Below are positions 723 to 57,129 of a DNA stretch of 57,198 nucleotides, one piece after another. This DNA is from Escherichia phage JLK-2012, in sequence record NC_049942.1, one strand, 5' to 3'. The notes beneath the pieces are model-generated. The model was not told where the DNA came from. It saw only the letters and a list, made by a program, of their open reading frames with translations, and made no database searches. Numbering within the stretch: the stretch's first letter is position 1; every line of letters begins with the position of its first letter. The position numbers were made by a program, and so were the translations under genes.

Positions 723-2009
723 TTACCCAGCTTTCTTATGGGGCATACATGGGACACTTTCAGATAGTCTTTTGTTAAGGAGTTCTATCTGTTCGTGATT
801 GTTGTCTTTCATCCATGCTCCGTAAACATTGAATACCATTTGTGCGTTTGTGTGGCCCATCTGGCTTGCGATAAAACTAGGATTAGCTCCAGCGGCAAGT
901 GACCAGCATGCATAAGTATGCCTGGATTGGTACGATTTTCTGTGTCTCAGACCTGCGCGTTTTAAGATACTTGTCCATGACTCCCTGATGGAGTCAACCT
1001 TATAGTGCGGTCCGGAAAACTGCCGCTGTTTTATTACCTGAGGACTAAAAACAAAAGTGCATTTATGCACAGTACTTCTCCCATATTCCCTCTGCTTTAC
1101 CTCTACAGAATGTTGCTTTCCAAGCATGGTCATTTCCGCCTGACTTTTAAGAGCATCAATAGCTGGTTGAACCAGATGAATTGTCCTTCCGGTGCCAGCA
1201 TCGGTTTTTGGTGGAGTGAATTCGCCAAGTTTTGTATAATTCCTACGGATGGTTATAGTCCTTGCTTTAAGATCTATATCTTCCCATGCCAGCGATACCA
1301 GCTCCCCGTGACGAATACCCGTGTATACAGCGAGAATCCACAGGTTTTTTGTTTGTTGATGACGGCAAGCCTCAATAAAACGAATAAATTCGTCACGGGT
1401 GAGAGGATCTGGTTTTACCTTGGACTTTTTTAAGGGTGCCAGACCGTTAAATGGGTTTCCTGAGGTATAACCATTATCTGTTGCAAATTGAAACATTCCA
1501 GCTATGGTTGTCATATAGTAGTTTACTGTGACCACTGAGCGCCCTTTTATGGAAGAAATCTTTCCATTAGAAAGCTTTTGGTAACCGGCCAACAAATCTC
1601 TCCTTGCGAAAAGTAAATCCTCTTTTGTTATGGATGAAACCAGTTTTTTCTCACCCAACATAGGCAACATGTTTTTAATTACTGACTGGTAACGATTAAG
1701 TGCATTCGCACAAATCTCAATTTTCTTAAGGTCCAACCATTTTTCCGAAAGTGCCTTAACGGTTATCTCTCTTTTTCCCAGACCAAAGTGTTTCAGGTTA
1801 GGGGAATTAGGGAACTGCGCGGCGTAGTCGAAACTCCCCATTCTGATTGCAAAACAAACAGAAGTGCGAAGCTCACCAGCGATCTTCCGGTTTTTGGCGG
1901 TGTCAGGAACACCGAGGTTTTCTCTGACACGTTTGCCATTATAGTGAAACCATATACGGAGTGATCCTCCATGGTTTTCAACGCCTGTCGGGTATGATGC
2001 GTTACTCAT
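723..2009 (-). CDS. int: Phage integrase, tyrosine recombinase
   Basis: 428-aa ORF adjacent to attL; C-terminal region (...RHTYACWSLAAGANPSFIASQMGHTNAQMVFNVYGAW...) typical of phage integrase catalytic domain. Confidence 0.9.
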   Translation of the reverse strand: MSNASYPTGVENHGGSLRIWFHYNGKRVRENLGVPDTAKNRKIAGELRTSVCFAIRMGSFDYAAQFPNSPNLKHFGLGKREITVKALSEKWLDLKKIEICANALNRYQSVIKNMLPMLGEKKLVSSITKEDLLFARRDLLAGYQKLSNGKISSIKGRSVVTVNYYMTTIAGMFQFATDNGYTSGNPFNGLAPLKKSKVKPDPLTRDEFIRFIEACRHQQTKNLWILAVYTGIRHGELVSLAWEDIDLKARTITIRRNYTKLGEFTPPKTDAGTGRTIHLVQPAIDALKSQAEMTMLGKQHSVEVKQREYGRSTVHKCTFVFSPQVIKQRQFSGPHYKVDSIRESWTSILKRAGLRHRKSYQSRHTYACWSLAAGANPSFIASQMGHTNAQMVFNVYGAWMKDNNHEQIELLNKRLSESVPCMPHKKAG

Positions 2010-2042
2010 AAAACCTCCCAGACGTCCAGGAGCATTAACAGG

Positions 2043-2297
2043 TTAACCGGAACTTGCATTTTTGGCACCTGGTTGTTTCTGGTTTTCGATCCATCGCATA
2101 ATTTCTTCGATGTTGTACAGGCATTCACTGTAATGCCCCGGATCACCTTCTACAGCGTAATGGCGGTATTCTTTTCCCTGCATCCATGACTTTCTTCTGG
2201 CTCGCTCGATGGTGCCAGGCTTTAGCCCTGTTGATGCAATGAGGACTCTCTCCGTACACCATTTGCTGGGGGTTATCTGATAGATGATTGTCTGCAT
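2043..2297 (-). CDS. xis: Excisionase-like protein
   Basis: 84-aa ORF immediately upstream of int on the same strand, the canonical xis position. Confidence 0.6.
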   Translation of the reverse strand: MQTIIYQITPSKWCTERVLIASTGLKPGTIERARRKSWMQGKEYRHYAVEGDPGHYSECLYNIEEIMRWIENQKQPGAKNASSG

Positions 2298-2315
2298 GCC
2301 AACCTCATAAAATTT

Positions 2316-2450
2316 TCATCCACGGCAGTGGCACCACACTTCAAACATTCGCTTCACAACTTCACGACAGTAGAAACCGTCACCACCTCGCGTCAGGTCA
2401 TAGCGATTGCCGTAACGCTGGTGGACCCATCGTTCAAATGCTTTATTCAT
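2316..2450 (-). CDS. Small hypothetical protein (44 aa)
   Basis: ATG-initiated ORF MNKAFERWVHQRYGNRYDLTRGGDGFYCREVVKRMFEVWCHCRG between xis and the next gene; not in the supplied track (<60 aa). Confidence 0.3.
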   Translation of the reverse strand: MNKAFERWVHQRYGNRYDLTRGGDGFYCREVVKRMFEVWCHCRG

Positions 2451-2453
2451 TCT

Positions 2454-54593: not shown

Positions 54594-55243
54594 GATAAAT
54601 CCTTATGACGTAATTTATATCCATTAATAATATCAATCCATTGATATTATCAGTGTCACATATCCGATGTGGACAGCTTTAATATATAGCTGTTTGAATG
54701 CTTGATTAATGTGACTTAGATCTCAAAATTAAGTTGTTAAATTTACCAGTTTATCGTTTGAATACATAAAATAAATTATAAATGTTTCTACTATTGTTTT
54801 TTATAGTTTAAATTATTGTTGATTGTATAAGTTGATTGCATTTTTACTCTAAGTGTTATAAATATTTCATACTGATATTAGTCTTATTATATATATTTTT
54901 AATGAAAATGAGCATAAAACTAAGACATATAATGCTTGGCAGCTTATGCCCTTCTGATTGGCTGTATGTTTGATGACAAAAAATTAGCGCAAGAGGACAA
55001 AAAATCACCTTGCGCTAATGCTCTGTCTCAGGTCACTAATCGACTCTAACTCATTGATTAATAGGAACACGAAAGATTGATCGTTGCGTAACACTGCTTG
55101 GCAGAAGGGACAGAACAGATTCTCCTTCAGGAGAATCTGTATACAATCAATGCCAGTTTTTTCGCATTGATTATAAAATTCATCAATAATGCCTTGAATG
55201 TGGAATATATTCTTCTGGGGTAGGCCTCTTCACTAGAACATGT

Positions 55244-56452
55244 TCAATCTTTAGTTTCAGCTTCGTACAGAATACGAGCGGCTTCTTGCGTAACATTATA
55301 CATTGCCTGCTCATCATTACCGCCAGCCCCAGCAATCGTCAATGCAACCCCAGCATAAATTTCTGGGTAGCTATGTGTAAATATATCCAGTGTATTTACA
55401 TATTTCTCTTCCATTCCTGCATCATAACGAACCTTATTTATTCCCGTTGCCATTGATTGTGGTGGACTGGAGCCTTCTGCACGAAAATAGTGATGTGACA
55501 GATCCGAGATAGCTTTGCATCCTTCTGCTTGGCTTAAGCCTGGAGCGGCCCATGTCTTACCAAAATGCTCGGCAGCGTAACGTGTTGCAAGAGTGGCGTC
55601 AGAGGAGGAACCGGATGTTCCGCTCATGACCGGTAGCCCAGCTTTATCACGCATAATTGTGCCGATATCTTGAGAAAGATCCATGCCTGTTGGTGTGCGG
55701 GTTGAGTGTGTACCGTTACGCTGAGCATCAATGCGGTTGTCTGCGCGGAATTTAACTCGCTCCTGAATCTTTAGCCTTCCAGCCAGCACTTGGCCAGTTT
55801 GAGCAAGCTCGAAACCAGAGAGTGCTTGTTCTTTTGTGAATGGACCTTCAGAACCGCACAGCATCATTGAGAAGGCAGAATGCGCACTGTCGGATAATTT
55901 TAGTCCACGACTACCGTAAAATGGTGAACCAGGTTTTGGCTCCTCTGAGCCAAGAGCCTCTTTGCCTAGCTGCTCGCGGTCGTTTCCATCCCAGTGTGTT
56001 TCCGTTTTCCAAAGGCCACGCTCCAGATGCCCCATCCATGCTGTTTGTTTGAATACAGGAGATTCTGGATTGGTTAGCCCCTCAACGGTCGAACGCAGAA
56101 TATTCTCTTCTGCTTTGCGATACCTCAGATAATTCTCTGCTCGTGTTTGCAGATGCTCTAATGATTTGTAATTATTGTTGGAAAGTGTGATTTGTAGGAA
56201 TGATCTCACAGTTATCGGCGAGTCAGCACCTGGCCGATAAGGTTGAGTTCCTATGTGGGCTTGGCTACACAATCCATCCTTCAGAGTATTACTGTCAGTT
56301 GTATATATACCGATTTGTGAATCGCTTACAACTGGTTTGATTCTGTTCGGCATATCACTTGACGGTTTATTATTTACGTTTTCATCATTTGGCCCAGTTG
56401 TGAGGAGTCCAGAAATACATCTTTGACTTAATTCGGGCTTTGCTGCAAACAT
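55244..56452 (-). CDS. Hypothetical protein, candidate type III secreted effector of unassigned family
   Basis: 402-aa ORF in the AT-rich effector island; polar Ser/Thr/Asn/Pro-rich N-terminus; no family recognised from memory. Confidence 0.55.
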   Translation of the reverse strand: MFAAKPELSQRCISGLLTTGPNDENVNNKPSSDMPNRIKPVVSDSQIGIYTTDSNTLKDGLCSQAHIGTQPYRPGADSPITVRSFLQITLSNNNYKSLEHLQTRAENYLRYRKAEENILRSTVEGLTNPESPVFKQTAWMGHLERGLWKTETHWDGNDREQLGKEALGSEEPKPGSPFYGSRGLKLSDSAHSAFSMMLCGSEGPFTKEQALSGFELAQTGQVLAGRLKIQERVKFRADNRIDAQRNGTHSTRTPTGMDLSQDIGTIMRDKAGLPVMSGTSGSSSDATLATRYAAEHFGKTWAAPGLSQAEGCKAISDLSHHYFRAEGSSPPQSMATGINKVRYDAGMEEKYVNTLDIFTHSYPEIYAGVALTIAGAGGNDEQAMYNVTQEAARILYEAETKD

Positions 56453-56656
56453 ATCTGCTATTCCTTATTTTATAAATGCATTTCCCAATTCTGGTTTGCA
56501 TACATTTCTTGTGGCTAAAATAAACACTTGTCATTAATTTTGTAACCGTATGTTAACAAAATGAGTTACTATACCGATAAAGGGACACTTTTGCTTAGTT
56601 AACCACACCATTTTCTTCGGACATAGGAAATTCCCGGCATGTGGATGGGATTTTAG

Positions 56657-56905
56657 TCAGTGAATAAACCAGTCGTCCGCTGTTTCCCTGGCTTCCTGAA
56701 GTGTTTCCTGTACAAATTTGTGTGCGGACTCTTTATCTGTGGCTCTTAAAATAGTGAGTCCATCATTACTGGCAGATTTGATGATGATTTCTGCATTGTC
56801 ATATCGTTTCCTGATACGGCGCAGCATTTCCTGTTGCAGGGCAGGAACAGAACCTTTTGGCATTTTGCTGATTTTTTCTTTAGCGATACAGCTCTCAACA
56901 CGCAT
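56657..56905 (-). CDS. DinI-like protein
   Basis: 82 aa MRVESCIAKEKISKMPKGSVPALQQEMLRRIRKRYDNAEIIIKSASNDGLTILRATDKESAHKFVQETLQEARETADDWFIH resembles DinI. Confidence 0.75.
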   Translation of the reverse strand: MRVESCIAKEKISKMPKGSVPALQQEMLRRIRKRYDNAEIIIKSASNDGLTILRATDKESAHKFVQETLQEARETADDWFIH

Positions 56906-57129
56906 AACACCCTCCTGTAACTGTGGTTATGTACAAGTGTTATTTTTAGTTGTATAGATAACCAGTGTCAATTGCTGATATTGTCTATGGGGCATCAATG
57001 GGGCATGTATGGGACACTTTTTATAGGCGAAATCCGTCGAAGTTCGTCGACATCGAAAACGAATTATCTGTCCAACCCTTGAAAATCGGCGCTCCTGGAC
57101 GATCTTCGTTGATTTTTAAAAATGTTGCG

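What the first reader, a model, noticed from the sequence alone, without database searches (positions are those of the whole stretch)
738..57030. 17-bp direct repeat CAT(A/G)(C/T)ATGGGACACTTT near both prophage ends; the right copy encodes an int-like C-terminal remnant
Inside the int 3' end (about 748-764, coding ...SVPCMPH...) and again about 120 bp inside attR (about 57008-57024), where the minus strand reads ...SVPYMPH then stop. These could be arm-type integrase binding sites on both att arms, or the right copy is a relic of an earlier int 3' end from a previous occupant of the site.
Basis: partly seen in the sequence, partly recalled or inferred. Interest (0 to 1): 0.4.

Follow-up and report, generated by a model that had tools for sequence, protein, structure and literature searches.

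The report
Integrase arm-binding sites flanking prophage attachment site
The repeated sequence near both ends of this mlrA-inserted prophage is most likely a set of accessory ("arm-type") docking sites for the phage integrase, an ordinary lambda-like feature, and the apparent integrase remnant at the right end is only those sites read as protein.

Summary
The repeat is real. It is part of an 11-bp-period array of a 7-bp unit, TG(C/T)CCCA in int sense. Two units cover the last codons of int (738-757). Three lie 111-144 bp inside attR (56987-57017).

The prophage is BP-4795-like and sits in mlrA/yehV. Its Int has an N-terminal Pfam arm DNA-binding domain.

I reconstructed 12 attP sites whose integrases are 42-100% identical and use different core sites (yecE, phiP27, 933W-type, Fels-1, CobraSix, Tritos, Yersinia, Rac and others). 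All have a tandem pair at the int 3' end. All have 2-4 more units in the same orientation, 179-200 bp further on across the core.

In Rac-type phages int stops before the pair, so the pair is a DNA element and not a coding feature.

Similarity between the two copies ends at 23 nt. Intact mlrA loci lack the right copy, while phage genomes carry it.

Verdict: Int arm-type sites with lambda-like spacing. The relic reading is rejected. This is a new member of a known kind, of low to moderate interest. No binding has been tested.

The parts
738..757 (-). Int-side (P'-like) arm array: two tandem units 11 bp apart. On the + strand they read ATGGGGCAT (738-746) and ATGGGACAC (749-757); in int sense, TGTCCCAtgtaTGCCCCA. 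They overlap int codons ...SVPCMPH..., 66-85 bp from the core centre at 672.
   Evidence: an equivalent pair is present in all 12 related attP sites
56987..57017 (-). P-arm array: three tandem units 11 bp apart (56987-56995, 56998-57006, 57009-57017), in the same orientation as the int-side pair, 121-151 bp from the core centre at 57138.
   Evidence: relatives carry 2-4 units at the equivalent place
665..685 (.). attL copy of the 21-bp common core CACGCGCGTAACGTGACAGGG, inside mlrA/yehV.
   Evidence: downstream sequence in attL-only loci L023 and L029
57129..57151 (.). attR core (57131-57151). It includes the phage-type inverted repeat GTCACG (57129-57134) / CGTGAC (57142-57147) around the 7-bp spacer CGCGTAA. 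These are candidate core-type Int sites and overlap region.
   Evidence: read from the sequence; flagged as a stem; intact mlrA matches only 57131-57198
723..2009 (-). int, 428 aa, a tyrosine integrase. The Pfam Arm-DNA-bind_2 domain covers aa 7-70 (nt 1800-1991) and Phage_integrase covers aa 203-396.
2043..2297 (-). xis, 84 aa, putative excisionase (Pfam DUF1233).
695..707 (.). IHF-like site (AAACTAATTGATT; one mismatch to YAANNNNTTGATW) between the int-side pair and the core. The column is conserved among relatives and is a perfect match in phage Tritos. Candidate only.
   Evidence: alignment; read from the sequence
57088..57117 (.). Conserved P-arm block next to the core. In int sense it reads AAAAATCAACGAAGATCGTCCAGGAGCGCC and contains ATC(A/G)AC / ATCGTC 10 bp apart. 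It lies 87 bp from the first P-arm unit. Candidate Xis or bending-protein site.

Best explanation
The repeat is the set of arm-type binding sites of the prophage's heterobivalent tyrosine integrase.

In the excised phage circle the two prophage ends join into one attP of about 240 bp. Reading in int sense, it contains:
- two TG(C/T)CCCA units, 11 bp apart, over the last codons of int;
- an IHF-like site;
- the core, GTCACG-7 bp-CGTGAC;
- a conserved block that may bind Xis;
- three more units in the same orientation, 121-151 bp from the core centre.

Inferred mechanism, by analogy with lambda. The N-terminal arm-binding domain of Int (aa 7-70) holds these distal units while the C-terminal domains of the same protomers bind and cut the core. 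Bending proteins fold the arms back. This assembles the intasome and sets the direction of the reaction. After integration attL keeps the pair and attR keeps the triplet, and excision needs Int to bridge both.

Because the int-side sites lie inside the int reading frame, they dictate the Int tail (V/A)P-x-(M/V/L)(P/S)(H/Q). The same DNA in the other arm therefore spells the same peptide without ever having been a gene.

Shown here: the anatomy, the arm-binding domain, and the conservation. Inferred: that Int binds these units, and what the IHF-like site and the block do.
For: 1. Specificity. The 17-mer and the tandem form occur only in the two arms of the 57-kb window. Five of the seven ATGGGRCAY matches are there, in exact 11-bp register.

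2. The Int matches Pfam PF12167 'Arm DNA-binding domain' over the full model, aa 7-70, E = 2e-24. Smyshlyaev et al. 2021 (PMC8138268) place integrases with this domain in the arm-binding IntBPP-1 subgroup.

3. Family-wide conservation. Eleven reconstructed attP sites were scored together (Int 50-100% identical; mlrA, yecE, phiP27, RCIP0098, L095, 933W-type phi315, CobraSix, FSL SP-016, Fels-1, Tritos, Yersinia 29.18).
- Each has exactly two units 11 bp apart at the int 3' end.
- Each has 2-4 further units in the same orientation and none on the opposite strand.
- The distance from the second int-side unit to the first P-arm unit is 192-200 bp (179 in Fels-1).
- Outside the units, the IHF-like column and one block, the arms barely align.
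- Rac-SA53 (42% identical) shows the same layout, with a 187-bp gap.

4. In Rac-type phages int ends (TAG) before the pair, TTTGCCCCCAATTTGCCCCAT. The pair is therefore kept as DNA, not as codons.

5. Natural controls. Eight prophage loci where int is followed by host DNA have only the int-side pair. Intact mlrA loci match only window 57131-57198. Related phage records with a contiguous attP carry both arrays.

6. Spacing resembles lambda. In this window the arrays lie at -151..-121 and +66..+85 from the core centre. In the lambda record P1 is at about -148..-129, and the P' motif run ends at the int stop, about +84.

7. Motif-first scan. Of 124 TGCCCCA-N4-TGCCCCA hits in viral contigs, 68 sit at the 3' end of an Int-family gene. 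Seven more are in P-arm context: one 193 nt past an int end, and six with the conserved block 87-88 bp upstream.
Against: - No binding data exist for this Int or, as far as I could find, for any member of its subgroup.
- The N-domain is not detectably similar in sequence to the lambda Int N-domain. hhalign aligns only the core-binding and catalytic parts, and PDB sequence searches hit only those parts.
- All units are direct repeats, whereas lambda P2 is inverted relative to P1 and P', so the intasome wiring cannot simply be copied from lambda.
- About 40% of motif-first hits in viral contigs have no Int-family gene in the fetched stretch. Some may be far-end P arms, others unrelated.
Confidence: 0.85

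Rival explanations
1. The right copy is a decayed remnant of an int 3' end. It would have been left by an earlier prophage at mlrA or by an old duplication within the phage lineage, and it would have no present function.
For: In one frame the minus strand reads KSVPYMPH followed by a stop, matching the Int tail SVPCMPH. Genuine int 3' fragments do occur at the right ends of some Stx2a prophage records: 93 aa, 68% identical.
Against: - Similarity stops at 23 nt. Upstream sequence scores below the shuffle mean, and an in-frame stop lies 17 codons upstream.
- The copy is part of the contiguous attP of related phage genome records and is absent from intact mlrA.
- The right array has three phased units where int has two, which is not what a gene fragment would look like.
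- Equivalent arrays sit at a fixed distance in 12 phages with different cores. Two-unit arrays are kept exact while the surrounding DNA has diverged beyond alignment.
- Rac-type phages keep the pair outside the ORF.
Confidence: 0.03
2. The units are binding sites for a different protein, such as the DUF1233 excisionase or a host factor, or they are a regulatory element. For example, they could control the dinI promoter 16 bp away or the int 3' end, rather than serve as Int arm sites.
For: Xis and Int co-occur across the whole family, so comparative data alone cannot say which protein reads the units. The P-arm triplet lies just upstream of a promoter-like site for dinI: -35 at 56971-56966, 10/12 match.
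Against: - The units lie on both arms, at lambda-like Int positions. In the characterised systems I know of (lambda, from memory), Xis sites lie on one arm next to the core.
- A separate conserved direct-repeat block next to the core is a better Xis candidate.
- In relatives the P-arm neighbour is not dinI (phi315, CobraSix, RCIP0098, Tritos), yet the array is kept.
Confidence: 0.1
3. Chance similarity of two short sequences.
For: None beyond the short length of the repeat.
Against: 0.02 matches are expected and 2 are observed. For the tandem form, 0.08 are expected and 3 are observed. The same arrangement recurs in 12 independent attP sites.
Confidence: 0.01

Closest known systems
Arm-type Int sites of phage lambda attP (P1, P2, P'1-P'3)
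   Same: - The heterobivalent integrase has a separate N-terminal arm-binding domain.
- A repeated motif of roughly 7-10 bp, unrelated to the core sequence, lies on both arms.
- Sites next to int form tandem arrays phased at about one helical turn.
- The short arm abuts or overlaps the int 3' end. In the lambda record the P' motif run ends at the int stop, and an 'int 4' binding feature covers the last 14 int codons.
- The overall extent is similar: here about -151 to +85; lambda about -152 to +82 (the lambda limits are from memory, Hsu, Ross and Landy 1980).
- An IHF-like site lies between the short arm and the core.
   Different: - The motif differs: TG(C/T)CCCA against lambda's (C/A)AGTCACTAT.
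- The N-domain belongs to a different Pfam family (PF12167, not lambda's), with no detectable sequence similarity.
- All units are in one orientation, whereas lambda P2 is inverted.
- There are two units on the int side and 2-4 on the long arm, against lambda's three and two.
- Both int-side units lie fully inside the coding sequence and specify the Int tail.
- No biochemistry is available.
IntBPP-1 / DUF3596 subgroup of arm-binding tyrosine recombinases (Smyshlyaev et al. 2021, PMC8138268): integrases of Stx2a phage, Gifsy-2 and BPP-1
   Same: The window Int has the PF12167 domain. It is 61-82% identical to the yecE-type, phiP27, 933W-type and Fels-1 integrases. It also shows the weak first histidine of the catalytic pentad noted for the subgroup: Y360 sits where that histidine would be, which is my reading of alignment A1.
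   Different: That paper classifies the proteins as putative integrases and does not describe their arm sites. The site consensus and attP layout given here are new relative to it.
Int 3' remnants and tandem or grounded prophage scars
   Same: A short int-like reading frame near a prophage end.
   Different: Real remnants are tens of codons long, for example 93 aa at the ends of the Stx2a_JNE records. Here only 8 codons match, and those 8 are the binding-site repeat itself.

Membership tests
Arm-type binding sites of a heterobivalent tyrosine integrase | The cognate integrase carries an N-terminal arm-binding domain in addition to the core-binding and catalytic domains. | tested here: met
Arm-type binding sites of a heterobivalent tyrosine integrase | A repeated motif lies on both arms of attP, outside the core and different in sequence from it. 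| tested here: met
   Units lie at 738-757 and 56987-57017. The core, GTCACG-N7-CGTGAC, has no TGYCCCA.
Arm-type binding sites of a heterobivalent tyrosine integrase | The sites belong to the phage attP and not to the bacterial attB. | tested here: met
   Both arrays lie in one contiguous attP in the phi330, phi315, CobraSix, Tritos, RCIP0098 and FSL SP-016 records. Intact mlrA matches only 57131-57198. In attL-only loci the host DNA downstream lacks units.
Arm-type binding sites of a heterobivalent tyrosine integrase | Sites are conserved in position, number and orientation among relatives whose core specificity differs. | tested here: met
   All 12 attP sites (Int 42-100% identical) have the int-end pair, 11 bp apart wherever both units are exact, 2-4 further units, a 179-200 bp gap, and no exact unit on the opposite strand.
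Arm-type binding sites of a heterobivalent tyrosine integrase | The Int N-terminal domain binds the sites, and the sites are needed for recombination. | not testable with these tools
   This needs EMSA or footprinting and attP mutagenesis. No report was found in the searchable literature.
Arm-type binding sites of a heterobivalent tyrosine integrase | Sites for bending or accessory proteins (IHF, Xis, Fis) lie between the arm sites and the core. | tested here: inconclusive
   An IHF-like near-consensus lies at 695-707, and a conserved block with a 10-bp direct repeat lies at 57088-57117. Both are conserved among relatives, but they rest on sequence pattern alone.
int pseudogene or 3' remnant | Nucleotide or protein homology to int extends beyond a single short motif. 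| tested here: not met
   The best local alignment is the 23-nt repeat. Upstream the score is 9 against a shuffle mean of 10.5 (sd 1.8). The in-frame translation RRISPIKSVPYMPH* does not resemble NKRLSESVPCMPH beyond the motif and has a stop 17 codons upstream.
int pseudogene or 3' remnant | The feature is a sporadic, lineage-specific scar, absent from functional relatives. | tested here: not met
   It is present at a fixed distance in every related attP examined, including related phage genome records with a contiguous attP. 474 of 5,426 complete E. coli genomes carry this attR junction.

The most novel reading that the evidence does not exclude
The tandem TG(C/T)CCCA arrays are the so far undescribed arm-site code of the whole DUF3596/IntBPP-1 integrase clade of enterobacterial lambdoid phages, including the 933W-type Stx2 phages, Fels-1 and Rac. 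They come with a rigid lambda-sized attP layout:
- a pair at the int 3' end;
- an IHF-like site;
- the core;
- a block that may bind Xis, 87-88 bp before the distal array.

The int-side sites are hard-wired into the Int C-terminal tail. Being direct repeats, the two arrays can also recombine and delete the core, as in viral contig L061. That would be a built-in route to losing attP and to immobilised prophages.
Probability: 0.4. Interest if true: 0.4.

Novelty: new member of a known kind. Interest (0 to 1): 0.27.

Why it matters
Arm-type sites are textbook biology, so the finding does not change how integration is understood. It has three practical uses.

- It gives a testable site consensus and attP map for an integrase clade that mobilises many Shiga-toxin and effector-carrying prophages (mlrA/yehV, yecE, wrbA-type and others). 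One recent survey still lists these as putative integrases.
- It provides a simple sequence signature for locating both ends of such prophages: a TGYCCCA pair at the int stop, and a second array about 195 bp further on in attP.
- It warns annotators that the int-like peptide at attR is not a pseudogene.

Tried and rejected
- Relic test. I aligned 400 nt of the int 3' end against the 231-nt P arm. Only the 23-nt repeat aligns, so the relic reading is rejected.
- Third GGGACACTTT copy at 56582-56591 as a distal arm site. Rejected: it is a single unit, reads TGTCCCT in int sense, lies about 540 bp from the core, and falls outside the region shared with VT1-Sakai and yecE phages.
- Sequence link of the N-domain to the lambda Int N-domain, by hhalign and PDB profile search. 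Only the core-binding and catalytic parts align.
- The search for related loci in viral contigs. Most of the 80 loci end a few bases after int, because the prophage prediction boundary falls there. Only about ten were informative.
- Literature searches for arm sites of Stx, Fels-1, Rac or DUF3596 integrases, and for the motif string. Nothing relevant turned up; the motif search returned phiC31 noise.
- The dinI upstream-element idea. The array is kept in relatives that have no dinI next to it.
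Full report
**Setting**

The window is a lambdoid prophage inserted in mlrA (yehV), which lies on the minus strand.
- A 21-bp common core, CACGCGCGTAACGTGACAGGG, sits at 665-685 (attL) and 57131-57151 (attR).
- The left flank (1-648) and the right flank (57131-57198) are mlrA. 5,424 of 5,426 complete E. coli genomes match the attR query. In the representative rows with intact mlrA, the match covers only 57131-57198.
- 474 genomes carry the whole attR junction, and one (2013C-3264) is 100% identical.
- The closest phage record is BP-4795: int-xis 98.1% identical, right end 95.6%.
- Next to attL, on the minus strand, are int (723-2009, 428 aa) and xis (2043-2297). Next to attR is a dinI homologue (56657-56905).

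**Observation**

It occurs nowhere else in the window, even with two mismatches allowed; 0.02 matches are expected. The peptide readings are correct...SESVPCMPHKKAG* for Int and ...KSVPYMPH* for the right copy.

The repeat is larger and more structured than described.
- The two copies share 23 nt, 21 of them identical.
- Both are part of an 11-bp-period array of ATGGGRCAY units. Two units start at 738 and 749, and three at 56987, 56998 and 57009.
- In int sense the unit is TG(C/T)CCCA. The tandem form TGYCCCA-N4-TGYCCCA occurs only at these two places in 57 kb, against 0.08 expected.

**What it is**

*The integrase.* Int has a full-length match to the Pfam arm DNA-binding domain PF12167 (aa 7-70, E = 2e-24), as well as the catalytic domain. 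A survey of tyrosine recombinases places DUF3596/PF12167 integrases (Stx2a phage, Gifsy-2, BPP-1) in an arm-binding subgroup and calls them putative integrases (PMC8138268). An integrase of this type needs arm sites.

*One attP in the phage circle.* When the prophage ends are joined, the two arrays flank the core in a single attP. The record of the closely related phage phi330 shows this contiguity directly: triplet, core, then the pair inside int.

*Reconstructed relatives.* I then reconstructed attP for relatives found by tblastn. These were:
- the yecE-type Stx phage EH2201 (82% Int identity);
- phiP27 and Klebsiella phage RCIP0098 (72-73%);
- the 933W-type phage phi315 (65%);
- CobraSix, FSL SP-016 and Fels-1 (63-64%);
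- Tritos (61%);
- Yersinia phage 29.18 (50%);
- Rac-SA53 (42%);
- a metagenomic contig, L095.

They use different core sequences. Outside three short elements their arms do not align. Even so, every one shows the same arrangement:
- a pair of units at the int 3' end, exact and 11 bp apart in the eleven sites scored together; Rac-SA53 has a near-unit, TGCCCCC, as its first;
- 2-4 further units across the core, in the same orientation;
- no exact unit on the opposite strand within about 700 bp;
- a gap of 192-200 bp between the second int-side unit and the first distal unit (179 in Fels-1, 187 in Rac).

*The Rac case.* In the two Rac-type phages the int ORF ends (TAG) just before the pair, and their Int lacks the (V/A)PxMP(H/Q) tail. 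The pair is therefore conserved as DNA, and the tail in the other integrases is what that DNA encodes.

*Natural controls.* Eight prophage loci in which int is followed by host DNA have the int-side pair and nothing downstream.

- 68 lie at the 3' end of an Int-family gene.
- One lies at the expected P-arm distance from an int end.
- Six more have the conserved P-arm block 87-88 bp upstream.
- The rest have no Int-family gene in the stretch fetched.

**The relic reading**

This reading fails every test applied.
- Similarity between the int 3' region and the right arm is confined to the repeat. Upstream of it the best local score (9) is below the shuffle mean (10.5). The frame that gives KSVPYMPH* has a stop 17 codons upstream and no resemblance to ...EQIELLNKRLSE.
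- The right copy belongs to the phage, not to the site.
- Real int remnants do exist elsewhere and look different. Some Stx2a prophage records end in a 93-aa int fragment.

**Likely mechanism (inferred from the lambda paradigm)**

The Int N-domain binds the TGYCCCA units. The core-binding and catalytic domains bind the inverted repeat GTCACG/CGTGAC, which flanks a 7-bp spacer at 57129-57147. Bending proteins let one protomer bridge an arm site and a core site. attL keeps two units and attR keeps three, and excision requires both.

Two further conserved elements fit this picture.
- An IHF-like sequence lies between the pair and the core (695-707). It has one mismatch to the consensus here and is a perfect match in Tritos.
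- A block next to the core on the long arm (57088-57117) contains ATC(A/G)AC and ATCGTC 10 bp apart. It is a candidate Xis site.

The spacing is close to that of lambda. Here the units lie at -151..-121 and +66..+85 from the core centre. In the lambda record P1 is annotated at 27583-27602, the core at 27724-27738, and the P' motif run ends at the int stop codon (27812-27814). An Int-binding feature is annotated over the last 14 int codons. Sites overlapping the end of int are therefore not unusual in themselves.

Differences from lambda:
- a different motif;
- a different N-domain family, with no detectable sequence similarity;
- all units direct, whereas lambda P2 is inverted;
- two units on the int side and 2-4 on the long arm.

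**Limits**

I found no description of these sites in the searchable literature. Older subscription papers are not covered by that search.

**Verdict**

This is an ordinary, lambda-like feature and a new member of a known kind. Its modest value is as a site consensus and attP map for the integrase clade of many Stx and effector prophages.

Noticed in passing
L061 3690-3800 compared with L095 3610-4090: Viral contig L061 (IMGVR_UViG_3300045988_080850, 48.7 kb) has a precise 207-bp deletion relative to L095. Its endpoints lie in the int-side and P-arm TGCCCCACCCATGCCCCAA pairs. The deletion removes the core, the IHF-like site and the conserved block, and changes the Int tail. It looks like recombination between the two direct arm-site arrays, which would destroy attP.
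   Followed up: partly
window 57088-57117 (and equivalent positions in L004-L006, L008, L010, L016): A block of about 30 bp next to the core on the long arm (int sense AAAAATCGACAAAGATCGTCCAGGAGCGC) is conserved among integrase relatives with different cores. It lies a fixed 87-88 bp before the first distal unit, both here and in six motif-only viral contigs. It contains two ATCGNC-like half-sites 10 bp apart and is a candidate Xis or bending-protein site.
   Followed up: partly
window 695-707: An IHF-like sequence lies between the int-side pair and the core. It has one mismatch to WATCAANNNNTTR on the minus strand. The column is conserved among relatives and is a perfect consensus match in phage Tritos.
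   Followed up: partly
L001 858-899 (phage vB_EcoS_phi330, PV189401.1): The deposited phage genome has the att core twice in tandem (cacgcgcgtaacgtgacagg then cacgcgcgtaacgtgacaggg). This probably comes from joining prophage ends that each carry a core, or from the assembly, rather than reflecting a real attP.
   Followed up: no
window 56582-56591: A third exact GGGACACTTT lies between the 402-aa ORF and dinI. It is a single unit (TGTCCCT in int sense), about 540 bp from the core, and outside the sequence shared with VT1-Sakai and yecE phages. It is probably chance (0.21 expected for the 10-mer).
   Followed up: yes
window 56942-56971 (minus strand): A promoter-like site for dinI (TTGACA, 18 nt, AAAAAT; 10/12 match) begins 16 bp from the P-arm triplet. 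The VT1-Sakai record annotates a promoter and a LexA site in the homologous region. If Int occupies the triplet it could influence dinI expression. Not tested.
   Followed up: no
L129, L140, L165, L168, L169, L171, L177; L163, L206, L112: The motif-first scan found a recurrent context, T(A/G)GC(G/A)TACGGTTTGCCCCATTTTTGCCCCA, in seven viral contigs with no Int-family gene in the stretch fetched. It also found longer arrays of 3-5 TGCCCCA units in higher-GC contigs. These may be arm sites of further integrase lineages.
   Followed up: no
L017 1-279 (Stx2a_JNE112618, LC727845.1 right end) and hits H118-H120: Several Stx2a prophage records end in a genuine 93-aa int 3' fragment (68% identical to the window Int, Tritos-like), complete with its TGCCCCA pair.
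   Followed up: partly
window 55244-56452 (minus strand): A 402-aa ORF with no Pfam match lies at the position of BP-4795 ORF84, which that record annotates as a 'putative avirulence protein', next to nleA4795. It is probably a type III effector-like cargo gene.
   Followed up: no
window 23402-23635, and the whole window: tRNA-Asn (gtt) and tRNA-Gly (tcc) genes lie inside the prophage. A six-frame search found no Stx A or B subunit signature peptides, so this BP-4795-like prophage may lack stx.
   Followed up: no
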